DNA of 64,000 bases from Mustelus asterias (Eukaryota). The stretch is from NCBI RefSeq assembly GCF_964213995.1, contig NC_135825.1, forward strand, positions 12,710,001 through 12,774,000, written 5' to 3'. A model generated the notes under the pieces. The model did not search any database. It was not told where the DNA came from and saw nothing but the letters and a program-made list of their open reading frames with translations. Positions 197 to 62,961 of this stretch are shown piece after piece. Every line of letters begins with the position of its first letter. Position 1 is the stretch's first letter. Both the position numbers and the translations under genes were made by a program.

Positions 197-306
197 CACC
201 TCAAATGTTTTCATCGCACTGGTGGTCCCTGTGCTCGGAGCATTATTTGTAGTGATCCTTATTACTAGTATTCTTGTTGCAAGATGCAGAAAGAAATCTG
301 CGGCTG
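197..306 (+). CDS. Gene A transmembrane exon of a type I membrane receptor, probably CD300/pIgR-like (TSNVFIALVVPVLGALFVVILITSILVARCRKKSAA)
   Basis: Acceptor tctttgtcttcacag at 195-196 and donor G|gtaagt at 307. Encodes ~23 hydrophobic residues followed by the RCRKK stop-transfer. Phase 2 in / phase 1 out, the same as the TM exon of gene C. Confidence 0.8.
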
Positions 307-461
307 GTAAGTTACAGAATTTCAAAAATTCCAATTCCAAATTAAAAGGAAATCCTCTCTCTTTCCAACTGGACAAAGTCAAGAGTGAAGCAGGAAATTT
401 CCCCCAGAGCACCTTCTGCTAAATTGTCCGCAATTGCCTCCAGAGAGGCAGTAATGGGGTT

Positions 462-712
462 TGTGATAACCCCCCAGGGACTTGCATGGGGACATCACTG
501 ATTGACCTCCCTATAGGACTTGTTGAATCCATGGTGATTGGCAATTACCTTACCAGGTGGAGTTCGTATGCAGAGCCCCTTATAAAGCAGGCCCCTGAGT
601 GGGTCCATTAATGTGGACCTGTTTGTGTTCATCACAGGCTTGTGGTTGTGCTTTCCTTTGTTTTGTGCAATAAAGCACTGTTCCTTTACAGCTGACTCCT
701 GGAGATTTTATA
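462..712 (+). mobile_element. Solo LTR
   Basis: TG...TA ends (CA decayed), TATAAA at ~581, AATAAA at ~669, perfect 5-bp TSD GGGTT (457-461 / 713-717). Confidence 0.7.
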
Positions 713-1089
713 GGGTTACTGCAGATTATGGTATCACGACAACTCCAAGGAACTTCACAGCCTGAGTCACAGTTACAAATTTCACCTGGGCAAAAGCAGT
801 ATCTCGCAGGTTAGAGTACAAGGGTCTCCCCTTCAGCCATAGCAGAGTGTAAAATAGACTCCACACAGCCAGTAGCTAGTCACAGGCTCCTGAGAAGCCT
901 AAATAGCGTCAATCAACAGCCACAAGAGACAGGGCCAATGCGAGATGCAAAGAAAGAGAGAATACTTGTATTTATACAACACCATTCACCTCAGAACATT
1001 CCACAGGGCTTTGCAGCAAATCAAGTACTTTTTTAATGTTGCAAATGTAGAAGATGCAACAAGCTCCCACAAACCAGCTTGTCTACTAA

Positions 1090-1585
1090 AAGGACGTGGA
1101 GGCTTTGGAGAGAGTGCAGAAAAGGTTTACCAGGATGTGGCCTGGTATGGAGCATATTAGGTATGAGGAGAGTTTGAATAAACAGGGATTGTTCTCCCTG
1201 GAAAGACGGAGGCTGAGGGGCGACCTGAGAGAAGTTTATAAAATTATGAGAGGTATCGATGGGGTGAACAGTTGGAAGCTTTTTCCCAGGGCAGAAATGA
1301 CAATTACAAGGGGGCACAATTCAAGGTAACGGGGGAAAGGTTCAGTGGAGATGTGCGGGGGAAGTTTTTTACACAGAGGGTGGTGGGAGCCTGGAATGCA
1401 CTGCCAAGTGAGGTGGTTGAGGTAGACACGTTAGCGACATTTAAGACTTATCTGGATAGACACATGAACAGATGGGGAATAGAGGGATATAAGCGTTTGG
1501 TTTAGATAGGTAAACATGATCGGCGCAGACTTGGAGGTCCGAATGACCTGTTCCTGTGCTGTGCTGTTCTTTATTCTTTGTTCTT
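1090..1585 (+). mobile_element. CR1/HER1-like LINE 3' fragment
   Basis: RT C-terminal peptides (ALERVQKRFTRM..., GLFSLERRRLRGDL, FFTQRVVGAWNALP) with a frameshift and a (TTCT)-type tail. Confidence 0.9.
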
Positions 1586-3095: not shown

Positions 3096-3151
3096 GCAAG
3101 AAAAAATTAGCACATACAGAGGAAGAATCTAACCCAGTCGATAGTGGTCTG
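3096..3151 (+). CDS. Gene A cytoplasmic exon (GKKKLAHTEEESNPVDSGL)
   Basis: cattcttag| acceptor and CTG|gtaaga donor. Phase 1 start matches the preceding exon. Lies in non-repetitive sequence. Confidence 0.7.
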
Positions 3152-3261
3152 GTAAGAGTTTCACGTAGAAAATCATCTAATGCTTTACATCTAACTATTC
3201 CTCATTTCAAGTGCCAAGTTTATTTATGGTCACAAAGCTAAAAGTCAAGTATTTGGGTACA

Positions 3262-10643: not shown

Positions 10644-10736
10644 CTTTTCAGAGACATCCATGGCCAAGACATCACATATGACATGGATGCGAGGATGTCC
10701 AGCTTTCAGAGAGAAGACTTTCCGCCTTATATTTAA
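10644..10736 (+). CDS. Gene A probable terminal coding exon (LFRDIHGQDITYDMDARMSSFQREDFPPYI*)
   Basis: ttgttcacttttcaaaag| acceptor, phase 0 compatible. Followed by unique AT-rich sequence with AATAAA at ~11042 and ~11648. An alternative acceptor at 10651 or a missed intervening exon cannot be excluded. Confidence 0.55.
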   Translation, partial: LFRDIHGQDITYDMDARMSSFQREDFPPYI

Positions 10737-22424: not shown

Positions 22425-23175
22425 TATTTATTTGTGGGACATAGACATCGCTGGTTGGCCAGCATTTATTGCCCTTGAGAAGATGGTGGTGAGTGAATTG
22501 TTGCAGTCCATGCTCTGTGGGTTGACCCACAATGCCGTTCGGGAGGGAATTCCAGGATTTAGCCCAGTGACTGTGGACGAATGGCGATATATTTCCAAGT
22601 CAGGACGGTGAGCGGCTTGGAGGGGAACTTGCAGGTGGTGGTGTTCCCATGTATCTGCTGCTCTTGTCCTTCGAGATGGAAGTGGTCGTGGGTTTGGAAG
22701 GTGCTGTCCAAGGATCTTTGGTGAATTGCTGCAGTGCATCTTGTGGATAGTACACACTGCTGCTACTGAGTGTCGGTGGTGGGGGGATTGATTGTTTGTG
22801 GATGTGGTGCCAGTCAAGTGGGCTGCTTTGTCCAGGATGGTGTTGAGCTTCTTGAGGGTTGTTGGAGCTGCAGCCATCCAGGCAAGTGGGGAGTATTCCA
22901 TCACACTCCTGACTTGTGCCTTGCAGATGGTGGACAGGCTTTGGGGAGTCAGGAAGTGAGTTACTTGCCACAGTATTCCTAGCCTCTGACCTGCTCTTGT
23001 AGCCACTATGTTTATGTGGTGAGTCCAGTTGAGATTCTGTTCAATGTAGCTCCATGGATGTTGACAGTGGGGGATTGAGTGATGGTTACACCACTGAATG
23101 TCAAGGAGCGGTGGTTGGAGTGTCTCTTATTGGTGAATGTTACTTTCCATTTGTCAGCCCCAAGGCTGGATATTG
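22425..23175 (-). mobile_element. CR1/L2-group LINE 3' fragment (second family)
   Basis: RAGQRLGIL...KAQVRSVMEYSPLAWMAAAPTTL RT C-terminal peptide; same family at 45200-46200. Confidence 0.8.
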
Positions 23176-23644
23176 TCCAAATCTGAACAAATATTCCCAA
23201 AGTACAAGCTAACATTAACAATAACAACACAAAATCAGAAAACGTGGCGAGAACAAGAGAGTGAACGGCCAGAATTGTATGCCCCCCGAGGGACAGGAAT
23301 GACAGGTAGGGGGAGGTGTAAAATTGGTTCCCATGCCCATTACTTGCCTACACCCAGATATTTTTCACATGGTGGTCGGTCTACTTGCCCATAGGCCAAA
23401 TAAGCCCCTTAAGTAGCCAATAAATGGCCACTGAACAGTCTCCTCCCACCACCACGAGGATTTTCCGTACGGCAGAGGAGATAAATACTGTGCCCAACCC
23501 GCCAGAGGTGAAACCTGGCAGTATCATGATCGGACCAACGGGTTGCCTCCTTGCTTGGCAGCTTGTGCCCATTAGAGGGTGCACCCAAGGTATACCCACC
23601 TCTGCATTACCCTTTCACTCTCACCCTGTCAATCCCAGCACATA

Positions 23645-24070
23645 GGGGAGGCAATGGCCGAGTGGTATTATCGCTGGACGATTAATTCAGAAACTCAGCT
23701 AATGTTCTGGGGATCCGGGTTCGAATCCCACCACAGCAGATGGTGAATTTTGAATTCCATAAAAATATCTCAAACTAAGAATCTACTGATGAGCATGAAA
23801 CCATTGTCGATTGTCGGAAAAACCCAGCTGGTTCACTAATGTCCTTCAGGAAAGGAAATCTGCTGTCCTTACCTGGTCTGGCCTACCTGTGACTCCAGAG
23901 CCACAGCAATGTGGTTGACTCTCAATTTCCCCCCTCTGAAATGGCTGAGTAAGCCACTCAGTTTTATCAGTGTTTCAAGAAGGGAGCTCACCACCACCTT
24001 CTCAAGGGCAACTAGAAATGAACATTAAATGCTGGCCAACCAGCGATGCCCATGTCCCATGAATGAATGA
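23645..24070 (+). mobile_element. tRNA-derived SINE with conserved core (CTGGTTCACTAATGTCCTT..GGAAAGGAAA; Meta-SINE-like, tentative) and LINE-derived tail
   Basis: A/B boxes (TGGCCGAGTGG; GGTTCGAATCCC). Tail gctggccaaccagcgatg is shared with the LINE at 22425. Further copies at 44030-44490 (minus) and 56797-56915. Confidence 0.75.
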
Positions 24071-24745
24071 AAAAAAACACAAACCCCTCACTGAGGCCAG
24101 CCAGCCCAGCTCTGGTGAGACCCCAGGACTTACCTTCATCTGGACTCCCTAGGCACCTCTTCACTGGGACTTCTGCAGTGCCAGCAGTGGTCTGAAAGCA
24201 CTGCTCGGTCAAGAGACTTGTCAGCTATTTGATTGGCGGCAGCTCCTGAAGGTGCAACTCCTAACCCACACATCTTTGGAGCATGGAAGGAAACCAGAGC
24301 ACCCAGAGGAAACCCATGCAGACACGGAGAGAATGTGCAAAGTCCGTACAGTCACCCAAGGCTGGAATCAAACTCAGGTCCCTGGCACTGTAAGGCAGCA
24401 ATGATAACCACTGTGCCACCGTGCCTGACTATTAGAATTGTTTCTTAATAGGTTAGGCAATGCATTGGCTAACTTTTCCAATTTCGTTTTGCATTGACAT
24501 TGTGTATTATAGTTCTAGGTTTTCTCCTGGCTATTTGCACTCACTTAAAGCGCACAAATGTATCTGGAGTATACAAGTCCAGTTTTACAAGCCAAAACCT
24601 TTCTAGATCTGAGCACATGTTGGAAAATCATCTGTTACTCACACAACTCTCAGTACATTCAATATTACATTACACGATTCCTTGGAAGAGTTCTTGTATG
24701 AATCTGATTTAATTTAATTTCCCAACTTGGAGTATAAACTATTTT

Positions 24746-25555: not shown

Positions 25556-25844
25556 GATTAGAGCTTCCAGTTTGTGGGCGTCATTCCGTTGTCTGCTCTG
25601 GCTGTTTGCACTGTTTCACTCACATGTAATGTGCATTTTGCAATAGGGCCAGTCTAGAGTCCAGAGCTTTGACGAAGGGTCATCCAGACTGGAGACGTTG
25701 GCTCTATTCTCTCTCCACAGATGCTGCCAGACCCACTGAGACTTTCCAGCATTTTCTGTTTTTGTTTCAGATTCCAGCATCCACAATATTTTGCTTTTAT
25801 TATAATATTTTAAATCTGATCTCTCTGATATTTGTAGACATATT

Positions 25845-30990: not shown

Positions 30991-33900
30991 AAAGCTCCCC
31001 TTACTTCAGGAAAGTTGAACAATATTACAGAGATGTGTATATGTTGGGGGCATGCCCCTTTAAGAGAATGGGTCAGGTGACCCAGGACACCAGCACTTGG
31101 GTGGACATTGCCAAGCCAGTCTTGTACCAGAAACCAACATGTTGATAAACAGTTCCAGTTAGTTTACTCCCACTTACCTCATGGTCTCTTATTAACCCAT
31201 TGGTAGACCACATATATAATAACTGGCAACGAGAATGGGATATGTTAGAGGTTATGGCGGGTGAATTTCACCATTTAGGCCAGAATATGCCCACACAACC
31301 TGCCAATATCTCTTGAAGTGAAACATTTTTGAAAGAAGGTCAATCAATTCATATTCAACAGTTCATTTGCTTAAATTAATTTCTTATTCATTTTCCAGGC
31401 CAACAGATGATGGATTAGATGGAAACATTGGCCAAAAACACATTTGAAGATTGGTCAGAAGATTGAATAAACCCTACATGAACATTCAGAATATTTCCAT
31501 TTGCTTTTTAGAAGTTACTTTCCTACGTTTCACTTTATTACAATTTGAAATGCTTTGCAAAGTTCGTAGAAATTGTGTGAACTGCATATTTTATAAAAGA
31601 ATGGGATGATAAATTTCTTTAATGTTGTTTATATTAAGGAGCAGTTTTTTTTGCAATGGTCATAAAGGATGGGACTCATGAAGGTAATCAGCTCCTCATT
31701 TTCAAGAACCAGTTGTAACTAGTTCAAAAAAATCACATTATGACACTGAAATATAAGCAAAGTAATCGGAGGAATTTTTCATAGAATCCTACAGTGTAGA
31801 AGGAGGCCATTCAGCCCATCGAGTCTGCACTGACCACAATCCCACCCAGGCCCCATCCCTGTAATCCCATGTATTTACCCTAGCTAGTCCCCCTGAGATG
31901 CAATTTAGCATGGCCAATCCACCTAAACCGCACACCTTTGGACTGTGGGAGCAAACCGGAGCACCCAGAGGAAACTCACGCAGACAATGTGCAAACTCCA
32001 CACAGTCACCTGAGGCTGGAATTGAACTCAGGCCCCTGGCGCTGTGAGGCAGCAGTGCTAACCACTGTGCCACCGTGCTGCCCCCATTTTCAGACAGGTG
32101 GGGGTTAAATCCACTAAAAGGTCGTGGAAGGTCAGCATTCCGCCATCATCTGGCCAACGTCCTGTGCAGGTTAGATGGTGAACAGGAAAACCCTCGGGCT
32201 GCTGTCAGATATGTCAGTTGAGTATTCAAATGGGCAAATTAATTGTTTGTTTTCATCAAGGATTCCAGGTTTAACAAACAGCAAGCTTATTTCCCAAAGC
32301 TCACACAGACTTCTAGTGTGAGCAGGGTGAGCACGCAGTGCTTCTTTGCTGAAACTGACAAACCGGGAAGCCTTTAACAGTAAAATTGGAGCTCTCTGAC
32401 CATGACAAGGTAAGAGGCTGCTGTTCACAACATGTCTTCGCTGGCACTGCTGTTGCCGTTTAGCAAATGGTTGCCAACTTCTTCGAAGTCATTTCACCCA
32501 TCCAGCACTTCACTCACCTCCAGACGTCATCAGCCTCCATCTCCGATGAAGGGCAAGGGAAGCCACAACATCAAGCTGACACCAGCCATGAGCTGCCTTC
32601 TCCTCAACCACCCAACAGTGCATAAGGCAGAAAGATGCACACAGAGATCCAGCTTCAAGGAGTAGAGAGCCCCACACAGGATCCACATGCGGAGAGTCAG
32701 CTTCTTGATTTGATTTGATTTATTATTGTCACATGTATTAACATACAATGAAAAGTATTGTTTACTGCTCGCTGTACAGGCAAAGCATACCATTCATGGA
32801 GAAGGAAACAAGACAGTGCAGAATGTAGTGTTACAGTCATAGCTAGGGTGTAGAGAAAAATCAACTTAATGCGAGGTAGGTCCATTCAAAAGTCTGACGG
32901 CAGCAGGGAAGAAGCTGTTTTTGAGTCGGTTGGTACGTGACCTCAGACTTTTTCTTTTCCTGATAGAAGAAGATGGAAGAGGGAATTCTAGGATGCGTGG
33001 GGTCCTTAATTTTGCTGGCTGCTTTGCCAAGGCAGCGGGAAGTGTAGACAGAGTCAATGGATGAGAGGCTGGTTCTCTGACAAGTGTGAGCAGCAGTGTC
33101 TCAAGTGGTTGTTGGCAAGTTGTCGCTCACATCTGCAGCCGACTGGAACAATACCTTCTTCATAGTGGGCCAAGAGGACTGTATTCCAGTGACCATAAAG
33201 GTGGCTGTCATTAAAGGGCAGACCCACCCTCGCCCACCCACCCAGAGGTTCTGTGCTTCCTTCCCCTGCAATGAGAGAACTTAGAGAGTTGTGAATGTTA
33301 TAAATGGTACAATAGGAGGGAAGGACACAAACTCATAGAGAGTGACAGTGAAGCCTGGGTGAAAGATGTCAATAGGCGTGTGAGTGTGAACTGTTGGCTG
33401 TTCTGATGGGATTGTGAGGTGCCTGGAGAAAGAGAGAGAGAGCAAATAATTGGGGCTGCAAAGGGTGTGACCCTAAGGATGGGCCGAATGGCCTGTGCAG
33501 GAGAATGTTGTAAAGCTCAGCATGTGGGACTTGACACTTGAAAATGATATGCTACTCGCCTTTCCAGCCCTCCTGAGTACCTGGATCTTGGTGCACTGTC
33601 TCGAGGCTGGAAGGACCACCCTGTTCTGGCTGACCTCCTTGGTTACTGCTGTCAATGCCTATTTGATTGTCCTCTTCCTCCCATTCTTGTGAGTTCTCAC
33701 CTTACTGCAGTTCCCTCAACTCTGTCAGCAACAGTGGCAGGCAACAATGAGGGAAACAGAGGGGAGGGAGATATTGGTGGAATATCTTCCCAGGTCTCTT
33801 CCCCAGTCCTTTGTTTGCTGCAGCCCCTCGATTCAGTTCAGCTATTCTGACCGCTGTTGTAGTCCTCTTAATTAAAATTCTTTTGACAGATTCAACGGGT

Positions 33901-36969: not shown

Positions 36970-37429
36970 TGTATTTTCCACCTGACACCTGTCATAGACA
37001 CACTTTGTCTTCCTTATCTCAATATTACCAAAATTTCGATCTCATCTTCTAAATAATCTTCACAGATCACGAGGAGTTTCTTCTGGGAGATGAGGTGGTG
37101 ATGGACAGTGATTCAGGGACAATTTTGATTGGACGGTTATTTTCTTGCTAATGAAAAAAACCTCCTTAGTTTCCATGTTTCCGTTGTCATGGTGATTGAT
37201 GAAAATAGAAGTTTTGGTCATTGTGTGAGTAAGCCTGTAGAAGTGTTAATGTGTAAGGAGAGAATAAAATTGGATTGCACGGGAACACCGGGATGGCCCA
37301 GTCCTGCTGAACGTCCACGGACTTTCTCCTGGCCCTCCACATCCCCCCGGGGGCAGGACCCAGCACGGCGGGACTGGAAAACAACCCAAGTGGAGTTGAG
37401 GAGCATGGATGCAGATTCTGCAGTTGGCC

Positions 37430-37591
37430 TCTAACCACATCTACATTGTTCAAGAGGAACTGGCCGATGTGACAGAAATATAAAGAAGGAAATGACATAC
37501 ACAACTGAGGAAACTACTCGGTTGAAAGATAGCACGGCTGAAGTACAATATCTGGACAGAGAGAATTCACCCGCCAGAAACACTCAGAACA
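37430..37591 (+). promoter_or_regulatory. Putative gene C promoter with RUNX (AACCACA 37433), PU.1/ETS (AAGAGGAA 37452; GGAA 37488, 37509), TATA-like (TATAAA 37479) and GATA motifs
   Basis: Motif cluster ~110-160 bp upstream of the ATG, retained in the duplicate at ~59260-59420. Confidence 0.5.
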
Positions 37592-37631
37592 ATGGAATTA
37601 ATTGCTCTCTTGATTCTAATATCTGTATCAA
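37592..37631 (+). CDS. Gene C exon 1, signal peptide (MELIALLILISVS)
   Basis: Kozak acaATGG, hydrophobic leader, A|gtaagt donor in phase 1 matching the IgV exon. Confidence 0.85.
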
Positions 37632-38649
37632 GTAAGTCTATTAAATTTTTTTAATTGATTTTTAATATTCATAGAAAGTATTTTTGGCAATCTGAGATGA
37701 TGAAGACCAGAAACAGCGACTGACCCAGGCACCAGTTGGTGTGAGCTAAAGATGAAGCACTTACAGTTTTGCAGACTGTGGCTGTTGTTGTGAAAGCCGT
37801 CTGCTGCTCCGGTATCTTCAGAAGATGGTGGCGTAGGGGTAACGTTTTGGGCTAGTAATCAGGCTAATGCTCTGGGGACTTGGGTTCAAATCCCACTGTC
37901 ACGGCTGGTGGAATGTAAAATTCAGTTAATTTATTGGGTGGCACAGTGCTTAGCACTGCTGCCTCAGCGCGCCGGGACCCAGGTTGATTTCCGGCCTCGG
38001 GTCGATGTCCGTGTGGAGTTTGCACATTCTCCCCATGTCTGCATGGGTTTCCTCCGGGTGCTCCAGTTTCCTCCCACATTCCAGAGATGTGTGGGTTACG
38101 CTTATTGGCCATGCTAAATTGACACTAGCATCAGGGGGATTAGCTTGGTAAATATGTGGGTTTACGGGAATAGGTCCTGGGTAGGATTATGGTCGGTGCA
38201 GACTCGATGGGCTGAATGGCCTCCTTCTGCACTGTGGGGATTCTATGACATTCTATGACAATCAGTCTTTGCTTCTCTCTGTGATTTGCCTCTGCATTCT
38301 GACTCTATCTGCCTCGTTGCAGCTCTGTCCTGATAAATTGCCCCTTAGTGTCAGCGTGTCTACCTCGGGTAAATGCATGGGGTTATGAGAATAGGGCCTG
38401 CGTGAGATTGCGGTTGGTGCAAACTCAATGGGGCAAAGGCCTCATTCTGCACTGTAGGATTCTATAATTATGATCATACCAGCTCCAAGCCAACAATTCT
38501 CCTCCTGTCGCTGTTCATGTAACCCTACAATCTCTCTGACAACTTTTCCCATTTACCTTGTTGTGAACCAATAACAGAGGTCGCGCCCTTAGCCAATTGT
38601 GTCATGAAGTGTTACAATGCTCTTTGTGTGTTGATAAATTGAGCTGTAA

Positions 38650-38836
38650 AGACTCGCATTCCAATCATTATTCATTCGTCTGTAAATTGAGTTTGTGTCT
38701 TTATATGCCCTGTTTGTTGTTTATGAGCAGATCTCCCACTCACCTGACGAAGGAGCAGCGCTCCGAAGGCTAGTGGCGTTTGCGACCAAATAAACCTGTT
38801 GAACTTTAACCTGGTGTTGTTAGACTCCTTACTGTG
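38650..38836 (+). mobile_element. Penelope-like terminus with hammerhead motif (38741-38775)
   Basis: CAC-CTGACGA-A-GGAGC agc GCTCC-GAAG-GCTA-GTG; absent from the duplicate. Confidence 0.65.
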
Positions 38837-39309
38837 ACAAATTGAGGAGCAGAGGATCTGACTAAACCCTCCTGTCTCCACAGAGCAAGAATCATTGCTA
38901 TCTTGCGAGAAAAGAGAAGAAAAACAGGGTGTCAAATCTATCTCAGATGTTCCTGTAAAGTGGGCATCCACAATCTGGCTCTGCCCATTTCCGATCCCTG
39001 TTGGAGGATGGCTTGGGAGGTTTGGTAGCTCAGTTATTGATTAAGTTAAATATTCTGAGAATGTGTCCCCAGGTTCTAGATCCCCAGCTGAAGGAATCAT
39101 CATTCCTGCATGTACTCTATCAAATCCTGTATGAAGTTCTGTTCACATGAGATCACCTCTAATTTTTCTAAACTCCACAGAAAAAAAGCTCAGTCTATTT
39201 AATCTTTCCACACTCCATCACACAAATTAGTTTGATGAACTTTCGTCGCATTTTCTCAATGATAAGTATATCTTTTCTTCTGTAAGGAGACTATAACTGC
39301 ACAATATAC

Positions 39310-39975
39310 TGGATAAAAGCAAATTATTGCGGATGCTGGAATCTGAAACCAAAAGAGGAAATGCAGAACAATCTCAGCAGTTCTGGCAGCATCTGTCAGG
39401 AGAGAAAAGAGCTGACGTTTCGAGTCCAGACGACCCTTTGTCAAAGCTAAAAGGCAGAGAAAGTGGGAGATATTTATAGTGCAGGGGGAGGGAATGAAAG
39501 ATGAGTCAGAGCCACAGAAACCAGGGGAAAGGCTGCTGATGGCTGTCCACAGAGAGAATAGAGGGTGTGAATGGCCAAACGGCAGAGAAGCTAAAATGAA
39601 GATGTTGGGGATGGGAGTGTGGTGGGGGGTGGGGGGGGGGGGGGGGGGGGGGTGGGGTCATCTTCCGGCTAGGCACTTTACATCCTTATGGCCCCAACAT
39701 CAAATTCAACAACTTTAGATGATTAGTTCTACTCCACCTCAACCCCACTGTTTTCATTCTATTTTATTTAATTTTTTACTGTTCTCTACCTATTATTTCT
39801 TTATTGTCTTTCTTCATTTTTCTTTCCACCCCCCACTCTCTCTGCCCCTACTTTGTCCCCCTTCCCTTACCTTTTCTCCCTCTTTGCTTCTCCTTTTCTA
39901 AATCTGACCTCTGTCCCATCCATTCCCCCCATCCCACCCCTCCCCCCACTCCCCAACATCTTTATTTTAGCTTCG
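39310..39975. mobile_element. Penelope-like element with inverted terminal segment
   Basis: 39310-39610 is the reverse complement of the sequence at 61425-61680; 39657-39975 is in the direct orientation. Confidence 0.7.
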
Positions 39976-41229
39976 CATTGAGACATCATTGCTGCAAAAC
40001 TCAAATCCTCTTGTCACCAAAGCCAAACTACCATTTGCCTCCTTAATTGTTTTCTCCATCGCCATGTTAACTTTCAGTGACCCACGAATAATTTCTCCTC
40101 ATCTCTGCCTTAAATGTCACGCCTCAGTTTCAAACAGTGACTCCCTCCTTCTAGATTCTCTGACAAGAGGAAACTTCCAATTCACGTTCTCCCTGTCATA
40201 GAGTCATAGAGGTTTACAGCACGGAAACAGGCCCTTCGGCCCAACTTGTCCATGCCACCCATTTTTTAAACCACTGAGCTAGTCCCAATTCCCATGTTTA
40301 GCCCACCTTACCCATGTAACTGCCTAAATGCTTTTTAAAAGACAAAATTGGACCCGCCTCTACTACTACCTCTGGCAGCTAGTTCCAGACATTCACCACC
40401 CTCTGTGTGAAACATTTGCCCCTCTGGACCCTTTTGTATCTCTCCCCTCTCACCTTAAACCTATGCCCTCTGGTTTTGGACTCCCGTACCTTTGGGAAAA
40501 GATGTTGACTGTCTAGCTGATTAATGCCCCTCATTATTTTATAGTCCTCTATAAGATCACCCTTAAGCCTCACTATTGTAAGACTGGAAGGAACATAACT
40601 GATCTCTAAACTTAAACCATAATTTTTAGTTAATTGCTAAACGCAAACAAATCAAATCACAGCCTTACTCTGAAGTCACTTTTCAGTTCCCCCCAGTTGA
40701 AACACTCAGAATCAGAATCCCTTACCGTCTCAGGTTATTCTCCGGCTCGCTCCCACTCTGTCCACTCCTGTAGTCAGGCCCACCACTTACCTGCCGGCTG
40801 TGACGACACGGTTCGATTTCTTTTTACCTTTCTCTTGCCCTCGAGTCTCCCTCGCAGGTCCATATCTTGGCTCCACCCAAAGACAAGTGCCTCTTTCCCC
40901 TCTGTGCCGAATTCCCACTCAGCTCCAAATTCCCGATACCCTCACTCTGGCTGAAATCTCACTCAGGCTGCAGTCTCTCTCCCACTGGCGTGCGCAGGCT
41001 CAGTGGTATCCGTAACGAGCAACATAAAATTCTGGCCTGTGTCTGTGCAGTGCTTTGAAGGCTCGTTGGTGAAATGAAGCAGCACAAGGAATTTGATCTT
41101 AACAATGTAATTTGATCCATCATTGCAAAGGAGATTGTTACAGCAATGAAATGGGACTGTTTACTCGGTTATTATTTAGTTGATTCAGATCGAGCTGTTA
41201 ATAACCTTTCCTCATTAACATCCCCATAG

Positions 41230-41559
41230 GTTCATGTCAATTAACTGGACCCAAGGAGGTTCATGGACAATCAGGAGGATCAGTCACTGTGAACTGTCAG
41301 TATGATCTGAAATACAAGGACCATGTTAAACAATGGTGCAAAGGTAATTATTACTACGTGCTTCAATGTTCTGTTGTGGTTTCTACTGAAAAGCCGGAAG
41401 AAGGAAGAATATCACTGACTGATAACAAAACACAAGGGATATTTTCAATTACCATGGATAACCTAATGAAGAGTGATGAAGGACAATATATCTGTGTGAT
41501 AGAAACACCAACATTTAAATATAATCACTGGATTTCTATTGATTTGAAAGTTTCTCAAG
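41230..41559 (+). CDS. Gene C exon 2, CD300/pIgR-type IgV domain (SCQLTGPKEVHGQSGGSVTVNCQY...KQWCKG...CSVVV...FSITMDNLMKSDEGQYIC...DLKVSQ)
   Basis: ccccatag| acceptor and G|gtaaga donor. Canonical V-set Cys/Trp/DxGxYxC plus the family-specific extra WC...C pair. Confidence 0.93.
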
Positions 41560-41989
41560 GTAAGATGCGAACGTATTTCTATTTAATTTATTCTGCCTCA
41601 ATTTAAACATTTTGAAATCAGAAATCCCACCTGTCCAATCAGCGGACCAGCTTAACTTTGGCAGTGTCACCAATTCCCATGGCCACTGCTGAGGCTACAG
41701 GGGGAAGGTGAAGGGACTCCACGCTGAGGCCCCATCAAAGAAAATATATATTTTTAAACCGAGCTGGGGCCTGGTGGGCAGGCCTCAGTAACCCGGGGCA
41801 TGCACACTCCATCAGGAACACCCTAGCACGGAGGGGATCATTACTGATTGGTGGGCATCTCCACGGGCCATGTGCAGCCACAGAGGAGGCCTCCCCTTCC
41901 AGTGAAACAACTGGGACAGCAGCCAGGGTTTATCCAGAAGTCTCAACATGTGTTAGCAGCTGCTTCCAATGCCAGAAAATTGCTGATTG

Positions 41990-42940
41990 CAGCAGTGGAC
42001 AATTAATTGGTTTAATTGCAGAGAGGCCGTGGCACAGTTGGAATCTCACTGGAGCAGGCAAACAAAGGGGGTCGTCCGACCTGACTGTCTGCCCCTCTAC
42101 TACGGTTACATTCATGGCTGGTTGTCCCTGGACAGGAGCATGCAGTGTCCACAGACACATCGAGGCCTTCCGTGCTGGTTGGGCACCGCAGGGACTGGGG
42201 TGCCTGATTGACCCCTTTAATCACATTCTAATTTGATGTTTTAAGTTTAATTTGTGTTTTGTTTTTGTTGAAGGCACTATCCCTCTAAGATGCTGCCCTT
42301 TTGACTTTCTCCCTCAATTCGTTTGATTTGGTTTCATTGGTTTATACAAAAGAGTTGCAATCACACTGGAGGTTCCCAGTGGAGGTCTCTCTATGGAGCA
42401 GTCCTCCCTTATCATTGGAGACCTGAGGTGGAGGGTGCCGCATGTCGCAGACCCACACAACCTTAGATTGCATCGGTTCATAGATTCCTAAGATGCTTGT
42501 CCTTTGTGTTGCCATGAGGACCATGCATATAAAGGATGCGTTAGACTGCATTTCCTTTTTAGTTATTTAAAATATCTTCTGTTACAGTTTTGTTTGCACT
42601 TCAGCCCCACGCTCCTGATCGACAGGCACCCGGTGCGGGGAGGGGCAGGGAAGGAGGAGGACCTCCTCATGAACCTGCTCCTCGGCCTGGCCAAACTTGC
42701 CCACAACAGGTCCAGGCAGCAAGCGACAAAGGGGGTCATCCGACCTGACTGCCGATTAACTGCGGCTACATTCACGGCTGGGTGTCCCTGGAGAGTGAGC
42801 ATGCAGTGATCAGGGGCACCATCAAGGCCTTCCATGCACATTGGGCACCGTGGGGGCTGGGGTGCCTCATTGACCCTTTAATTACATTTCAGTTTGATGT
42901 TTTAAGTTACATTTGTGTTTTGTTTTCGTTTAAGGCACTG
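41990..42940 (+). mobile_element. Tx1/L1-group non-LTR retrotransposon 3' fragments, two tandem pieces
   Basis: EDLLMNLLLGLAKLAHNRSRQQAT peptide; duplicated 3' UTR-like sequence. Confidence 0.55.
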
Positions 42941-42974
42941 CGGTGACACAGTGGTTAGCACTTTACTTTACATT

Positions 42975-43860
42975 ACCCCTTTGCCACATGTTCCCCTACC
43001 GAAACTCTGAAGACCTGACCGGGCTCATTCCCCAGTACTAGGTCCAGTATAGCCCCCTCTCCAGTCGGGCTATCTACATATTGTTCCAAAGAACCTTCCT
43101 GTACGCATTTTACAAATGCCTCCCCATTCAGACTCCCAGCCCTACGTGAATTCCAGTCTACACCAGGGAAATTGAAGTCTCCCACTACAACAACCCTATT
43201 TTTCCTGCACCTCTCCATTATCTCCTGGCATATCCGTTCTTCCACTTTTACTTTGTCCATCAGTTAATTTAAATCAATTAAATTGTTTTATACAAAAGAG
43301 TTAGAATCTCACCGAGCTGGCAATCCAGTGGCCCAGAATATTGCCCTGGAGATATGGGTTCAAATCAAACCACAGCAGCTGATACAATTTAAATTCAATT
43401 AACAAATGGTCCCTTTGGCCCATCGATTCTGTATCAACACGTGAGAAACATCTGACTTCCCACCTCATCCCATCTGCCAGCACTTGGTCCATAGCCCTGA
43501 ATGCTATGATGTGCCAAGTGCTCATCCAAGGTGCTTTCTGAAGGATGTGAGGCAACCCGCCTCTATCACCCTCCCAGGCAACACATTCCAGACTATCACC
43601 ACCCTCTGGGTAAGAGTTTTTCCTCACATTCCCCCAAACTTCCAGCCACTCACCCTGAACTTGTGTCCGCTCATGACTGACTCTTCAATAAAGGGGAACA
43701 GCTGCTCCATATCCACACTGTCCATGCCTCTCATAATCTTGTACACCTCGATCAGGTCACCCCTCAGTCTTCTCTGCTCCAAGGAAAACAACCCAAGCCT
43801 ATCCAACTTCTCTTCATAACGTAAATGTTCCATCCCAGGCAGCATCCTGGTGAATCTTCT
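42975..43860 (-). mobile_element. CR1-like LINE fragments (APE endonuclease VVGDFNFP...ILDLVL; RT C-terminus)
   Basis: ORFs 42973-43260 and 43624-43845. Confidence 0.85.
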
Positions 43861-44676
43861 GGTTGACTGCCACCCTTACATATTACCCCAAAACCACAGC
43901 AATGTGGTTTACTCCTAACTGCTCTCTGAAATGGCCCAGCAAGCCATTCAGTTCAAGGGCAATTAGGAATGGATAACAGAAAACTGACCTTGCCCCTGAC
44001 ACCCACGTTCTAAAAACCTGCCACCCTTTTTTTATTCATTCATTGTACATGGGCATCACTGGCTGGCCAGCATTTATTGCCCATCCCCAGTTGCCCGAGG
44101 GTAGTTGAGAGTCAACCACATTGCTGTGGCTCTGGAGCCACACATCATCAGACCAGGTAAGGACGGCAGATTTCCTTCCTTAAAAGACATGAGTGAACCA
44201 GGTGGGTTTTTCCGACAAGCGATAATGGTTTCATGATCATCAGTAGATTCTTAATTCCAGATATTTTTTATTGAATTCAAATTCCACCACCTGCCGTGGC
44301 AGGATTCGAACCCGGGTCCCCAGAGTATTTTTTTCTGTTACAGTTTTGTTTGCACTTCAGTCCCATGCTCCTGATGCACAGGCTCCCAGTGTGGAGAGGG
44401 GCAGGGATTCAGACCCGGGTCCGCAGAATATGGGCTGAGTTTCTGGATTAATGGTCCAGCGATAATACCATTAGGCCATCGCCTTCCCTAAACTGGAGGT
44501 AGATGGCTGTGCTGCTGAGGTTGCTGCCATTGCCAATGACATGTGGCATCAGGAATACATTGGGTGACCCTCCTGTCACCTCCCACTACCATTGCCCAAG
44601 TCTGCCTGCCTCCCAATCCACCATATACACAAAGTACTTTCAATAATAAAAAGTTCAACAAGTTCCTCTCTTTTAG

Positions 44677-44812
44677 GCCAACCACAAAGTTCAACAATAG
44701 GCCCGACCACCAGCGCAGCAGGAAATACCAAGGCTTCTGTCAACACAACAGGAAATACCAAGGCTTCTGTTACCACAATTCTCACCATTTCACCCATCAA
44801 TGACTTTCACAG
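44677..44812 (+). CDS. Gene C exon 3, Ser/Thr-rich mucin-like stalk with an internal 30-nt duplication
   Basis: ctctcttttag| acceptor and AG|gtaaac donor. Encodes GQPQSSTIGPTTSAAGNTKASVNTTGNTKASVTTILTISPINDFH, phases 1/2. Confidence 0.85.
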
Positions 44813-46435
44813 GTAAACCCTGAAAAAAATGGACTCAGTATATGTGTACATACTAGAATCATAGAATCCCTACAGTACAGAAGGAAGCCATTCTGCCCAT
44901 CGAGTCTGCACTGACAAAACTCCCACCCAGGACTTGTCCCCGTAACCCCACATATTTACCCTGACAATCACCCTGATACTAAGGAGCAACTTATCATGGC
45001 CAATCCATCTAACCCACACATCTTTGGACTGTGGGCGGAACCCAGAGCACCCAGAGGAAACCCACGCAGACACAGAGAGAATATGCAAACTCCACACAGA
45101 CAGTTCAATTCCATGGGCTGGAATTGATCCTTGTCCCTGGTGCTATGAGGCAGCAGTGCAAGCAACTGTGCCAACTTGCCACAAACATGCACGTGCCTTC
45201 TTGAACCACTGCTGTCCATGTGGCGCAGATACACCCACAATACTATGAGGGAGGGAGTTCCAGGATTTTGACCCAATGACCTTAAAGGTACAGCGATATA
45301 TTCCCAAGTCAGGATGGTGAACAGCTTGGAGGGCAACCTCCAGGTGGGGGTATTCCCATGAATCTACTGCTCTTGTCCTTCTAAACAGTGGAATTCATGA
45401 GATTGGAAGGTGCTGCCTAATGAGTTTTGTTGAGAACTTGCTGGGCATCTTGTAGATGGTACACACTGCTGCCTGCTCGTTGGGGGTGGAGGGAGGGAAC
45501 ATTTTTGGAAGGGGTGCTAATTATGCAAGCTGAATTGTCCTGGATGGTGTCAAGCTCCTTGAGTGTTCTTGGAGCTGCAATCATCTAGGCAAGTGGAGAT
45601 GATTCCATCACACTCCTCACTTGCACCTCGTCAATGATGGACAGGCTTTGAGGAGTCAGGAAGTGAGTTACTTGCTGCAGGATTGCCAGCCTCTGACCTG
45701 CTCATGTAGCCACAGGATTTATATGGCTTGTCCAATTCCGTTTCACATCAATGGTAACCATTCGAATATGGTTCGAATGATTGCCTGGCACTTGTGTGGC
45801 ATGAATGTTATTTGCCACTTGTCAGCCAAGCTGGATATTGTCCAGGTCTTGCTGCATTTGGACATGGACTGCTTCAGTATCTGAGGCATCATTCATTGAA
45901 CATTGTCCAATCATCAGTGAACATCCCCTCTTCTGACCTTATGATGGAAGGAAGGTCATTGATGAAGCAGCTGAAGAAAGTTGGGCCGAGGACACTCCCC
46001 TGAGGGACTCCTGCAGAGATGTCCTGGAGCTGAGATGATTAACCTCCAACAACCACAACACCTATGAACCAGGTATGACTCCAAACAACAGAGGGATTTC
46101 CCCCTGATTCCCATTGCCTCCAGTTTTGCTGAGGCTCCTTGATGCCACACTCGGTCAAATGTTGCCTTGATGTCAAAGGCAGTCACTCTCTCCTCACTCC
46201 CATTTGCAGTAAACCAGTCTGATTTTGCCAGTATTTATGGGCAGCTCAAAACCTCGTCGATATGAGGGCTTGTTGGAAAGTCACCTGATTCTTGCACAAT
46301 TCCCTGTGCATTCAGTATCACATCTTACAATGTCTCGGGAGGCTAAAAGGTTTCATGCATGAATGTGATTTAAATCCTCAACATGGGGTTTAAGCATTTT
46401 TCCACTGGATTAATTATAGTTTCTTGTTTAATCAG

Positions 46436-46551
46436 AGAGGATGAGCTGAAGAGTCTCGGTTTCTGGGCGATATTCCGCTGGCTGCTCTTTGCTGCTCTGC
46501 CTGTTTGCACCGTGTCAGTCGCATGTTACACACATTTTACAAATGACCCAG
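46436..46551 (+). CDS. Gene C exon 4, TM segment with Arg (EDELKSLGFWAIFRWLLFAALPVCTVSVACYTHFTNDP)
   Basis: ttgtttaatcag| acceptor and G|gtataa donor; phases 2/1 are consistent with neighbours. Confidence 0.85.
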
Positions 46552-52137: not shown

Positions 52138-52245
52138 GCAAAGATAGCGCGGCTAACGTGCAATACCTGCACAGAGAGAATTCACCCACCAGAAACACTC
52201 AGTACAATGGAGTTAATTGTTCTCTTGATTCTGATGTCCATAATA
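52138..52245 (+). pseudogene. Orphan copy D of the 5'UTR/leader exon (MELIVLLILMST*), lacking its splice donor
   Basis: Matches 37525-37625; fused directly to the Gypsy relic. Confidence 0.8.
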
Positions 52246-53603: not shown

Positions 53604-53863
53604 ATGTGCTAGGAGCAAGCAGCATTGCATAACCTTCACATCTGTTCCTCTCCACCTCCCCATNNNNNNNNNNNNNNNNNNNNNNNNNNNNNNNNNNNNN
53701 NNNNNNNNNNNNNNNNNNNNNNNNNNNNNNNNNNNNNNNNNNNNNNNNNNNNNNNNNNNNNNNNNNNNNNNNNNNNNNNNNNNNNNNNNNNNNNNNNNNN
53801 NNNNNNNNNNNNNNNNNNNNNNNNNNNNNNNNNNNNNNNNNNNNNNNNNNNNNNNNNNNNNNN

Positions 53864-58070: not shown

Positions 58071-59422
58071 CCCTGCACTGCCTGCCTGCCTGTCCATCCT
58101 TGAGTTTTTTATGGAGCTGCCCCTCATTAGGGCAGATCAGCTGCAGGCAGTTCGGCAGAGCATTCCGGCAAGTTCCACGCAGTTTGCTTGTTAGCATTGA
58201 GGGGAAGGCAAGTGAGCACTTGCAGGTGTGCTGCTGGGGAGGGGGGGGTGGGTGATGGATCAGTGCCTCAATGCGTGGGGACAGGGGAGAGAGAGGGAGG
58301 TGCCACACAGCCATCGGAGTCCGGAGGAGATGGGGGCCTAGTGTGGCAGGGTCCAGGGTGGGGGAGAGGGTGCTCACTCTGCCTGAGATATGTAGGGTGG
58401 AGGGGGGAGGATGGATCTCTCAGCCTGAGTTCAGTGAGGGAGAAGAGGGTGTCCGCTGTCAGTCTGCCTGAGATCAGTGGAGGGGAAGGGGGGAGGGGGC
58501 TGCGATCGGTCTGGGTGGCGGGGGGGGGTGGCGGTGGGGGGATAAGTGGGTCTATAATGTTATGGGGGTGGGGCCATGTCTGTGGGGGCCGGGGGGAGGC
58601 CCGGGCGCAATGTGGCACTTTTCAATTTATTTTACTGCGCATGCGCAGCTGAAGGATCCAATCGGAGCAGCAGCGTTTCGGGCGGGATAAGCCCCGCCCA
58701 CAGCGCGATTCGGACTCGCGACTTTTTTTTTTCAGGCTAAGTGCGTACGGGGGCGCCTGAGAACAGGGTTTACAAGTCGGATCTGAATTACGCTCAGATT
58801 CAGCACTTAGAATCAAAAGGGTAAAATTGCCCCCTTTGTCTTCCTTCTCTCAATATCATCAAAATTTCGATCTCAGCTTCTAAACAATCTTCACAGACCA
58901 CAAGGGGTTTCTTCTGGGAGATGAGGTGGCGATGGACAGTGATTCGGGGACAATTTTGATTAGACAGTTATTTTGTTGCTAAGGAAAAAATACCTCCTTA
59001 GTTTCCATGTTTCCGTTGTCATGGTGATTGATGAAAATAGAAGTTTTGGTCAATGTGTGAATAAGCCTGTAGAAGTGTTAATGTGTAAGGAGAGAATAAA
59101 ATTGGATTGCACGGGAACACCGGGTTGGTCCAGTCCTGCTGAACGTCCACGGACTTTCTCCTGGCCCTCCACATCCCCGGGGGGCAGGGCCCAGCACGGC
59201 GGGACTGGAAAACAACCCAAGTGGAGTTGAGGAGCGTGGATGCAGATTCTGCAGTTGGCCTCTAACCACATCTACATTGTTCAAGAGGAACTGGCCGATG
59301 TGACAGAAATATAAAGAAGGAAATGACATACACAACTGAGGAAACTACCCGGTTGAAAGATAGCACGGCTGAAGTACAATATCTGGACAGAGAGAATTCA
59401 CCCGCCAGAAACACTCAGAACA

Positions 59423-59462
59423 ATGGAGTTAATCGCTCTCTTGATTCTAATGTCTGTATCAA
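59423..59462 (+). CDS. Gene E exon 1, signal peptide (MELIALLILMSVS); rest presumably beyond the window
   Basis: Intact ATG and A|gtaagt donor; paralog of 37592-37631. Confidence 0.8.
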
Positions 59463-60999
59463 GTAAGTCTATTAAATGTTTTTCATTGATTTTTAATATT
59501 CATAGAAAGTATTTTTGGCAATCTGAGATGATGAAGACCAGAAACAGCGACTGACCCAGGCACCAGTTGGTGTGAGCTAAAGATGAAGCACTTACGGTTT
59601 TGCAGATTGTGGCTGTTGTTGTGAAAGCTGTCTGCTGCTCCGGTATCTTCAGAAGATGGTGGCGTAGGGGTAACGTTTTGGGCTAGTAATCAGGCTAATG
59701 CTCTGGGGGCTTGGGTTCAAATCCCACTGTCACGGCTGGTGGAATGTAAAATTCAGTTAATTTATTGGGTGGCACGGTGGTTAGCACTGCTGCCTCAGCG
59801 CGGCGGGACCCAAGTTGATTCCTGGCCTCGGGTCGATATCTGTGTGGAGTTTGCACATTCTCCCCATGTCTGCATGGTTTTCCTCCGGGTGCTCCAGTTT
59901 CCTCCAACATTCCAGAGATGTGTGGGTTACGCTGATTGGCCATGCTCAATTGACCCCTTAAGGTCAGGGGGACGAGCAGGGTAAATATGTGGGTTTGCAG
60001 GAATAGTTCCTGGGTGGGATCATGGTCAGTGCAGACTCGATGGGCAGAATAGCCACCTTCTGCACTGTGGGGCTTCTGTGACATTCTATGACAATCAGTC
60101 TTTGCCTCTTTCTGTGCTTTGCCTCTGCATTCTGTCTCTATCTGCCTCGTCACAGCTCTGTCCTCCCCGAAACACCAGCTCCTCATCAACGACAAGGAAC
60201 TAACTGGGTTTTTCTTTCCATTTGTCTCACACAAGCCCTGTTGTGTCGCACCTCGACCTGAGGGAAAACTCTCAAGGAGATTCACATGGTGCAGATTGCA
60301 GAAGAATCGAGAACCTGGAACACATTTGTGCCTTAAAAGGCAAACTGTCAAATATTATTCTTTAGAACAAAAATACATTTGGAGAACAAAACTCACAATC
60401 AGTTATTTCATTTCCGCAAAAATGAATTGTGTCTGAATAGACTGAGCACTTTCATTGTTTCTTTGTGTACTTTTTTTACCCAGTTTCTGAAGCTCAAAAT
60501 GATCTTTTTTGTTAAGCAATTGTAGTATGTCTTTACTCGTAATTATTTGAACACATTTCTCAACAGGGCGGCACTGTGGCGCAGCGGTTAACTCTGCTGC
60601 CTCACAGCGCCAGAGACACGGGTTCGATTCCCGGCTTGGGTCACTGCCTGTGTGGAGTTTGCACATTCTCCCCATGTCTGCGTGGGTTTTCTCCGGGGGC
60701 TCCAGCTTCCTCCCACTCTCCAAAGATGTGCAGGTTAAATGGATTGGCCATGCTAAATTGCCCCTTAGTGTCAGGGGGTCTAGCTAGGGGAAATGCATGG
60801 GGTTATGGGGATAGGGCTTGGGTGGGATTGTGGTTGGTGCAGACTCGATGGGCCGAGTGGCCTCCTTCTGCACTGTAGGACTCGGTGATTATGATAATAC
60901 CAGCTCAAAGCCAACAATTCTTCTCCTCGAGCTGTTCACGTCACCCTGCAACCTCTCTGACAACTTTTCCCATTGACTTTGTTATGAACCTCTCGATGC

Positions 61000-61680
61000 T
61001 GCTCCCATGCCCACATGTCTGTCCTTGGCCTGCTGCGATGTTCCAGTGAAGCTCAACGCAAACTGGAGGAACAGCATCTCATCTTCCAGCTCCCCACATT
61101 ACAGCCTTCCGGTCTCAACATCAAATTCAACAACTTCAGATGATTAGCTCTACCCCACCTCGATTCCTTTCTTTTCATTCTATTTTATTTAATTTTTTAC
61201 TGTTCTCCACCTTTTATTTCTTTATTGTCTTTCTTCATTTTTCTTCCCCCCCCCCCATTCTATCTCCCCCTACTTTATCCCTCTTCCCTTCCCTTTTCTC
61301 CCCCTTTGCTTCTCCTTTTCTAAATCTTACCTCTGTCCCATCCATTTTCCTCCCCCCTCACCCCACCCCCACAGCCACCGCCCCCCCCCCCCCCCCCCCG
61401 CCCCACCACCACCCCGCCCCGCCCTCACATCTTCATTTTGGCTTCTCTGCCGTTTGGCCATTCACATCCTTTATTCTCTCTGTGGACAGCCATTAGCAGC
61501 CTTTCCCCTGGTTTCTGTGGCTATGACTCATCTTTCATTCCCTCACCCTGCACTATAAATATCTCCCACTTTCTCTGCCTTTTAGCTTTGACAAAGGGTC
61601 GTCTGGACTCGAAACGTCAGCTCTTTTCTCTCCTGACAGATGCTGCCACACCGGCTGAGGTTTTCTAGCATTTCCTCTTT
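61000..61680 (+). mobile_element. Penelope-like element 3' end (GIY-YIG C-terminus RKLEEQHLIFQLPTLQPSGLNIKFNNFR*) with hammerhead at 61584-61622
   Basis: Peptide read from ~61010-61143; AGCT|TTGACAA-A-GGGTC..GACTC-GAAAC-GTC|AGCT. Confidence 0.8.
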
Positions 61681-62961
61681 TGCACCAAATCCCCCAGATT
61701 CAGCCTCACCAAAGCTTCGCGTTGAGACATCATTGCTGCAAAACTCAAATCCTCTTGTCACTAAAGCCAAAATACCATTTGTCTTCTTAATTGTTTTCTC
61801 CATCGCCATGTTCACTTTCAGTGACCCACAAATAATTTCTCCTCATCTCTGCCTTAAATGTCACGCCTCAGTTTGAAACAGTGACTCCCTCCTTCTAGAT
61901 TCTCTGACAAGAGGAAACTTCCAACTCACATTCACCCTGTCATCAAGTCGTAAAGCTTTACAGCACGGAAACAGGCCCTTCGGCCCAACTTGGCCTTTTT
62001 TTTAACAACTAAGCTAATCCCAATTGCCCAAGTTTGGCCCATATCCTATCTAAATGTTTTTTAAAAGACAAAATTGTACCCGCCTCTATTACTACCTCTG
62101 GCAGCTTGTTCCAGACACTCACCACCGTCTGTGTGAAACATTTGCACCTCTGGGCCCTTTTGTATCTCTCCCCTTTCACCTTAAACCTATGCCTTCTAAT
62201 TTTGGACTCCCCGACCTTTGGGAAAAGATGTTGACTATCTAGCTGACCTATGCCCTCATTATTTTATAGACCTCTATAAGATCACCCCTAAGCCTCACTA
62301 TTGTAAGACTGGCAGGAACCTAACTTACTTCTTCACTTAAACCATTCGTTAATTGCGAAACGCAAACAAAAACTAAACCACAGAGAGAGATTAACCCTTT
62401 AGTGACCTCTGTGAGCACCAGGATCGTATTTTACAAGGAGTGGTTATTGGGACAGAGAATACCTAATGAGATTGAAATTATCCTGAGAGCCATTGGTGCA
62501 GAACAGAGGCTGGACATTGGTTTCCCTCGCTGAGCAAGCCCACATCGTCTAGAGGTGTGCAGGCCCACAGTTTTATACCGACCAGGCCACTCCCTCCGCC
62601 TGTAATTGTCCATGGGCTCAGAAATGGGCAGACTGAGAAAGAATGAAGGGATTCATTTTTTCTTCTCAAGTTTCTTTTCATATTTCCCATTGCGACAAAG
62701 TCTGTAAATAAGGAATCTTCTGATTTGGTGGAATCTGGTCCCACAAGAAGCTCACAGCAGATAATCAGAGGGCTGCCTGTTGGGGAAATTGGGGACAAAA
62801 ACTGTGGCCTCAATTTTTCGCCAATCGGACTCGCTGGGGCTGGAGGTGGGCGTAAGACATGTTCTCAGCTGCAGTCAACGCCATTTCACATTGGTTGGCC
62901 AATTAAGAGTCAGCCAGTGTGAAACACGCACGTGAAAATGCCACAGCCCTGACGGGGAGGG

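What the first reader, a model, noticed from the sequence alone, without database searches (positions are those of the whole stretch)
197..62380. Paired-receptor-like cluster caught in birth-and-death evolution (five tandem copies in different states)
Seen, all on the + strand: gene A (uncharged TM, Tyr-bearing tail), relic B (Arg-TM, decayed), intact C (Arg-TM), orphan leader D and new duplicate E. The TM exons of A and C share phase 2/phase 1 boundaries. Inference: a CD300-like paired activating/non-activating receptor locus in a shark, analogous to the mammalian CD300 and teleost PIGRL clusters.
Basis: partly seen in the sequence, partly recalled or inferred. Interest (0 to 1): 0.7.

Follow-up and report, generated by a model that had tools for sequence, protein, structure and literature searches.

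The report
Shark on/off immune receptor pair
This is part of a large shark cluster of immune-cell surface receptor genes, in which a likely 'accelerator' gene and a likely 'brake' gene share almost the same sensor part, probably because they keep copying DNA from each other; the on/off design is already described in skates, so it mostly adds detail to a known kind of system.

Summary
The five pieces are real, but they are not five copies of one unit, and the pair was misread. The window is 64 kb of a 1.1-Mb cluster with 74 CD300/pIgR-type IgV exons in a houndshark (RefSeq: Mustelus asterias). The true pair is C and E. C has an Arg-bearing TM and a short tail; one contig shows its TM-to-last-exon splice. 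E, completed beyond the window, has an uncharged TM and two ITIMs. Their IgV domains are 89% identical, against 52-73% to other sharks and rays, while their TM/tail exons are unrelated and old. In 6 of 8 species the activating and inhibitory IgV are sisters, and C/E divergence is patchy (2-12%). This points to an old pair kept alike by gene conversion, not a new duplicate. A is an ancient two-IgV gene without ITIM; B (3' half) and D (99 nt) are relics. The cluster sits between G-alpha genes and an AHCYL gene, on a contig with TREM- and PIGR-locus neighbours, not the two CD300 neighbours tested. The design is known (skate MDIRs, primate CD300A/C), and this scan noted the cluster before, next door and in another genome.

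The parts
197..306 (+). Gene A TM exon, uncharged, phase 2/1. A's leader, two IgV exons and stalk lie upstream of the window (C25:12689343, 12698964, 12700886, 12706514)
3096..3151 (+). Gene A first tail exon, phase 1/0
10644..10736 (+). Gene A last coding exon; two Tyr, no ITIM consensus; stops earlier than orthologues in other sharks
22525..24712 (+). Relic B: intron pieces colinear with C's stalk-TM intron (69-85% identity)
25569..25652 (+). Relic B: Arg-type TM exon remnant; 5' end preceded by a LINE, 10-nt deletion, donor lost
31244..31670 (+). Relic B: last exon (from 31399) and 3' UTR, 67% identical to C's
37003..44855 (+). C side of the C/E homology tract: promoter, leader, IgV, stalk; ends 43 nt after the stalk exon
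37592..37631 (+). Gene C leader exon
41230..41559 (+). Gene C IgV exon, four Cys, CD300-like fold
44677..44812 (+). Gene C Thr/Ser-rich stalk exon with a 10-aa internal repeat shared only with E
46436..46551 (+). Gene C TM exon with Arg in a W-x-x-x-R-W motif; skipped in RefSeq model XP_078054028.1
48841..48860 (+). Gene C last exon, coding part when joined to the TM exon (six more codons, then stop)
   Evidence: joint 46551 to 48841 in run X3
52140..52238 (+). Relic D: leader fragment, 88-89% to C and E, no donor, followed by pieces matching DNA upstream of C
58834..62370 (+). E side of the homology tract inside the window; a 3.7-kb insertion follows and the tract resumes 2 kb past the window end
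59423..59462 (+). Gene E leader exon. IgV, stalk, uncharged TM and two tail exons lie at C25:12776632-12790706, outside the window

Best explanation
Genes C and E share a near-identical leader, IgV domain and stalk but end in unrelated TM and tail exons, so they are likely an activating/inhibitory receptor pair whose sensor halves are probably kept alike by repeated gene conversion. Shown: exon structure, the Arg-TM and short tail of C, the uncharged TM and two ITIM motifs of E, the homology tract that stops just after the stalk, and species-wise clustering of IgV domains. Inferred from established knowledge of paired Ig receptors: E would recruit SHP-type phosphatases through its ITIMs; C would signal through an ITAM adaptor, most likely FcR-gamma, through its TM Arg; E would bind a self ligand that pathogens exploit, and C would be the counter-receptor that conversion keeps tracking E. 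A is a separate, older two-IgV receptor with no ITIM. B and D are remains of earlier duplicates.
For: C and E IgV 88.6% identical over 105 aa, against 52-73% to the 29 other C/E-type domains. C TM vs E TM 6%. E's TM+tail 26-71% identical to 16 other inhibitory-type models, 13 of which carry two cytoplasmic ITIM-type motifs; C's TM 30-62% to 11 other Arg-TM models. IgV tree of 33 rows: activating and inhibitory domains are sisters in 6 of 8 species with both (Mustelus 98/93, Carcharodon 97/85, Heterodontus 99/100, S. canicula 99/95, Hemitrygon 100/98, Narcine identical); one activating clade rejected, p-AU 1.1e-5, 11 vs 16 rows, Narcine left out. Divergence along the tract is 2.1-12.5% in 8 blocks (chi-square p 1.7e-22); within intron 2, 41/1417 near the IgV vs 82/795 further on (p 1.3e-12). 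A 10-aa stalk repeat is in C and E and none of the other 7 aligned proteins. Order activating-then-inhibitory recurs in fused models of Carcharodon and Mobula hypostoma. One contig of run X3 joins 46551 to 48841, GT..AG, while X1 runs through both exon edges. An FcR-gamma-like TM exon with its Asp is in the genome. The same pattern is described for primate CD300A/C (PMC12447643, abstract and passages).
Against: 2 of 8 species do not show sister pairs: Amblyraja groups by type with other skates, and M. hypostoma's activating domain lies outside. S. canicula has a second, unhomogenised activating IgV. All non-Mustelus rows are RefSeq predictions; some are fused, and Narcine's identity may be a modelling artefact. 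Part of the patchiness may be mutability of SINE and homopolymer stretches. The splice evidence is one contig of depth 3.3 in a run whose kind is not on record, and covers one joint of C; nothing was laid on A or E. RefSeq models C without its TM exon. No positive selection shown: pN/pS 1.14, 13 N and 3 S changes, p 1.0. No ligand, cell type or adaptor was shown.
Confidence: 0.75

Rival explanations
1. One recent event per lineage: the 5' half of one gene was duplicated or crossed over in front of the other's old TM and tail, and the copies have drifted since (birth-and-death with exon capture, no ongoing conversion).
For: The tract is colinear over 7.85 kb and has one sharp 3' end. B is a 3' half and D a 5' fragment, as unequal crossovers would leave.
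Against: One event predicts even divergence; it varies sixfold along the tract. It would have to recur independently in at least 5 lineages.
Confidence: 0.15
2. C works mainly as a soluble or TM-less decoy, made by skipping the TM exon, and not as an activating receptor.
For: RefSeq models C with stalk joined to last exon (P0009); a Heterodontus isoform is modelled the same way (P0113). The phases allow it.
Against: The TM exon is open, conserved in sharks and rays, and spliced to the last exon in X3.
Confidence: 0.07
3. One reading: five tandem copies of one gene, A the non-activating partner of C, E a new whole copy of C.
For: All five are real, same strand, same family; TM exon phases match.
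Against: A has two IgV domains at 37-39% to C and groups with elephant-shark domains. E has no C-type TM or last exon but an ITIM tail.
Confidence: 0.03

Closest known systems
[quoted passage not shown] 2006, PMID 16738934 (not held; known to me from passages of PMC3031540, and from recall)
   Same: Multigene activating/inhibitory Ig receptors of a cartilaginous fish with a CD300/TREM/FCAR/pIgR-like domain (PMC3031540 passages).
   Different: No MDIR sequence was retrieved, so orthology of C, E or A to a given MDIR is untested. I saw no account of genomic position or gene conversion for MDIRs, but could not read the paper.
Primate CD300A/CD300C paired receptors (PMC12447643; abstract and passages)
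   Same: One IgV with a second disulfide; inhibitory member with ITIMs; IgV domains cluster by species through gene conversion; activating member more often lost.
   Different: CD300C's charged TM residue is Glu, here Arg. The shark contig has no match to the two CD300-neighbour families tested. The shark pair appears far older (shared by sharks and rays).
pIgR and teleost PIGR-like clusters (PMC4016189, passages)
   Same: Related IgV domains; tandem expansion; RefSeq calls gene A 'pIgR-like'; the PIGR-neighbour SARG is on the same contig.
   Different: SARG is 7.7 Mb from the cluster; single-domain scores favour CD300lf (64.8 bits) over the best human pIgR domain (35.7); no Ig binding tested.
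TREM / NKp44 cluster
   Same: IgV with extra Cys pair; NFYA, a FOXP gene and an MDFI-family gene lie on the same contig.
   Different: The cluster is not between NFYA and FOXP (9.78 and 1.9 Mb; cluster 11.85-13.0 Mb); weaker sequence and fold scores; Arg rather than mid-TM Lys (TREM feature recalled).

Membership tests
Paired Ig receptors (functional class) | Closely similar ectodomains on adjacent genes | tested here: met
   C/E IgV 88.6%, stalk about 90%, 22 kb apart
Paired Ig receptors (functional class) | One member with charged TM and short tail, the other with uncharged TM and ITIMs | tested here: met
   C: Arg TM, stop shortly after; E: VTYSAV and VEYSAI
Paired Ig receptors (functional class) | Opposite signalling through ITAM adaptor and SHP phosphatases; shared ligand | not testable with these tools
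   Needs cell assays; an FcR-gamma-like gene is present
CD300 family | Single V-set domain with CD300 fold and second Cys pair | tested here: met
   Four Cys in C and E; top 10 Foldseek hits are CD300lf/IREM-1, TM-score 0.86-0.90
CD300 family | Position at the CD300 locus (neighbours TTYH2 and NHERF1, recalled) | tested here: not met
   Tweety and EBP50_C matches lie on C5, C12, C23 and small contigs, none on C25; immediate flanks are G-alpha and AHCYL genes. Only two neighbour families were tested.
CD300 family | One clade with mammalian CD300 in an IgV tree | tested here: inconclusive
   The one mammalian row falls in an open fork; 106 columns
MDIR | Cartilaginous-fish multigene family with activating and inhibitory forms and a CD300/pIgR-like domain | tested here: met
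   definition from PMC3031540 passages
MDIR | Sequence orthology to skate MDIR proteins | not tested
   No record named MDIR among the hits or the 10 clusters
pIgR (gene A) | Position beside FCAMR/SARG/IL10 | tested here: not met
   SARG 7.7 Mb away; IL10 search found nothing anywhere and says nothing
pIgR (gene A) | Binds and transports polymeric Ig | not testable with these tools
   Needs a binding assay
TREM cluster | Position between NFYA and FOXP4 (recalled) | tested here: not met

The most novel reading that the evidence does not exclude
C/E is an activating/inhibitory pair that has been re-homogenised lineage by lineage since before sharks and rays split, making it among the oldest paired receptors kept by gene conversion; and its cluster, between the G-alpha pair and AHCYL1 on the chromosome that also carries the TREM and PIGR neighbourhoods, is a surviving ancestral locus of the pIgR/TREM/CD300 radiation that mammals lost from this place.
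Probability: 0.3. Interest if true: 0.65.

Novelty: new member of a known kind. Interest (0 to 1): 0.37.

Why it matters
The on/off design in cartilaginous fish is known, and RefSeq already models C, E and A, though C without its TM exon and A fused to the gene before it. What is added: the correct pair; evidence that the concerted evolution seen in primate CD300A/C also runs across sharks and rays; and a genomic address that argues against simply calling these genes CD300 or pIgR orthologues. This makes a testable entry into where pIgR, TREM and CD300 came from. I found no paper on this locus's position or conversion in seven library searches, but the library lacks most subscription journals and both Cannon papers.

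Tried and rejected
Assembly artefact for the C/E duplication: rejected; identity is 82-97% and the 3' halves differ; X1 and X2 contigs agree with C's TM and last exon. A 64-residue read-through tail for C from the second acceptor at 48849: possible by frame, but the only joint seen uses 48841. An ITIM exon for A: none outside repeats in 22 kb downstream. A leader, IgV or stalk for B: none by tblastn or blastn with C and with the next Arg-TM gene. Positive selection on the IgV: pN/pS 1.14, p 1.0; exon 16/330 vs flanking introns 53/1997, p 0.036, one post hoc test, weak. Complex prediction of C's TM with the FcR-gamma-like TM: no verdict, score 0.05. Run search: no RNA holder listed. IL10 family search: nothing rang anywhere. 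Deep profile search for MDIR relatives: queue full three times, not run. A regex for IgV domains failed and was replaced by an HMM. The strict TM scan missed E's TM and the left-block Arg TMs, which searches found. The zebrafish NILT preprint had none of six terms. No supplements were read.
Full report
Setting. The window is G000:C25:12710001-12774000. Three RefSeq models from a contig of the same length match its exons at 100% and are labelled Mustelus asterias. I fetched 1.4 Mb around it. An HMM built from the window's IgV finds 74 IgV exons between 11.877 and 12.984 Mb. The region holds 19 open-frame TM exons with a W-x-x-x-R-W motif and 11 uncharged TM exons (9, E, one at the right end). 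Tail exons with ITIM-type motifs follow 10 of the 11; three on the left stop early. Gene A is the one without.

Observation. All five pieces exist on the + strand at the coordinates listed under parts. C is whole: leader 37592-37631, IgV 41230-41559, stalk 44677-44812, TM 46436-46551, last exon from 48841, 213 aa. One contig of run X3 joins 46551 to 48841 with GT..AG ends, and X1 runs unbroken through both exon edges. That is one contig of depth 3.3 in a run of unrecorded kind, and only this joint was examined. RefSeq models C without the TM exon, and a Heterodontus isoform is modelled likewise, so a soluble splice form may also exist. B is the 3' half of an Arg-type gene, colinear with C at 67-85%, with a LINE before its TM remnant, a 10-nt deletion and no donor. 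D is a 99-nt leader fragment, 88-89% to both C and E, so older than their 97% likeness at that place.

The pair is C and E. E's IgV and stalk lie just beyond the window. No C-type TM or last exon follows on the + strand. An uncharged TM exon and two tail exons follow instead, giving 265 aa with two ITIM motifs and a Tyr between them. C and E share promoter, leader, IgV and stalk over window 37003-44855; the match stops 43 nt after the stalk exon. Their TM regions are 6% identical.

E is not new. Its TM and tail match 16 other inhibitory-type models from sharks and rays at 26-71%, and C's TM matches 11 Arg-type models at 30-62%. Yet the C and E IgV domains are 88.6% identical to each other and 52-73% to the 29 other domains of this subfamily. 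In a tree of 33 rows (membrane-proximal IgV of each model, two A domains as outgroup), activating and inhibitory domains are sisters in 6 of the 8 species that have both; Amblyraja and Mobula hypostoma are the exceptions, and S. canicula has a second activating domain that stands apart. One activating clade is rejected (p-AU 1.1e-5; Narcine left out because its two domains are identical). Divergence along the C/E tract is 2-3% at the promoter/leader and around the IgV, and 8-12% in between. A 10-aa stalk repeat is shared by C and E alone among 9 aligned proteins. The simplest reading is an old pair whose 5' halves are overwritten by conversion again and again. The direction cannot be told. The non-Mustelus rows are predictions, some fused.

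The 12 amino-acid differences between C and E come from 13 nonsynonymous and 3 synonymous changes (pN/pS 1.14, not significant). Seven of the 12 lie at positions 43-47 and 96-100, which the model places at the C-C' loop and the F-G loop (pLDDT 92). That these loops form the ligand face in CD300 proteins is recalled, not tested.

Gene A. It has a leader, two IgV exons and a short stalk upstream of the window, 337 aa. Its domains are 37-39% identical to C's. Its second domain groups with an elephant-shark domain (99/88), the first sits in the same open group. Orthologue-like models exist in five other sharks at 72-79%. Fused models place a C/E-type gene right after A in elephant shark, Heptranchias and Cetorhinus, so the order is old. 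A's tail has two Tyr and no ITIM consensus; it stops about 12 residues earlier than in catsharks. Most likely it is a non-signalling or Tyr-adaptor-type receptor; this is inference.

Mechanism. From established knowledge of paired Ig receptors (recalled), a TM Arg near the outer leaflet pairs with the Asp of FcR-gamma, and ITIMs recruit SHP-1/2. The genome has two zeta/gamma-family TM exons with the Asp; one scores best against FcR-gamma (43.9 bits, CD3-zeta 37.4). Coupling itself is not shown.

Position. Left of the cluster lie a transducin-type G-alpha gene and a second G-alpha gene tail to tail; right lies an AHCYL gene whose best structure hit is adenosylhomocysteinase 2 by a thin margin, 68.6 vs 65.4 bits (114 of 297 candidate exons were scanned). 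The same contig carries a FOXP gene (1.9 Mb), an MDFI-family gene (2.17 Mb), NFYA (9.78 Mb) and SARG (20.66 Mb). Tweety and EBP50_C families have no match on it. The names GNAT2, GNAI3, AHCYL1 and the human gene orders are recalled; PMC4788293 (search listing only) puts chicken TREMs on chromosome 26, which I recall also bearing PIGR. So the cluster is on the TREM/PIGR linkage group but at neither mammalian site, and not at the CD300 site as far as two markers show.

Comparison. It works like CD300A/C, including conversion (PMC12447643, abstract and passages), and the fold is closest to CD300lf. Membership of CD300 fails on position. It fits the description of skate MDIRs (PMC3031540, passages); sequence orthology is untested because no MDIR record was retrieved and the original paper is not held. 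PMC4016189 (passages) reported no PIGR or FcR-gamma homologues in sharks with 2014 data. Earlier notes of this scan filed the neighbouring window and another shark's cluster as MDIR-like; they are unchecked and came after my reading.

Verdict. Real, correctly recognised as a paired-receptor cluster, wrongly parsed. New member of a known kind; interest 0.37.

Noticed in passing
window 13473-17965, - strand: Gypsy-type LTR retrotransposon with 255-nt LTRs at 94% identity, protease, RT, RNase H and integrase matches, RT split over frames, inserted in a CA repeat.
   Followed up: partly
window about 53600-56800: Harbinger-type transposase frame (DDE_Tnp_4) beside a 41-nt tandem repeat at 53000-53660, between D and E.
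   Followed up: partly
window 18175-18895 and 21406-22125; 12884-13085 and 20698-20899: Local duplications, 98% and 89% identical, next to CA-rich repeats between A and B.
   Followed up: no
G000:C25:12635241-12676971 (L033-L037): Two single-IgV genes just upstream of A: one with Arg TM and almost no tail, one with uncharged TM and VTYATV plus TEYSTV motifs; RefSeq fuses the second with A.
   Followed up: partly
G000:C25:11.88-12.57 Mb (L051-L130): Young arrays: five near-identical 37-kb units, and multi-IgV genes whose domains lack the extra Cys pair; three ITIM tails there carry an early stop.
   Followed up: partly
G000:C25:20024578-20024895, - strand: Lone IgV exon 0.64 Mb from SARG; a candidate for a gene at the PIGR/FCAMR position.
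   Followed up: no
L172:1507-1596, - strand (G000:C275): FcR-gamma-like TM exon, although PMC4016189 found none in sharks in 2014.
   Followed up: partly
window 48880-48900: C's last exon lacks 2 nt relative to the next two Arg-TM genes; this lengthens only the alternative frame used by the TM-less RefSeq model, and X2 agrees with the assembly there.
   Followed up: partly
P0016, P0038, P0036, P0022, P0027: The extra Cys pair of the IgV is lost in several shark and ray models, in Heterodontus only in the activating member.
   Followed up: no
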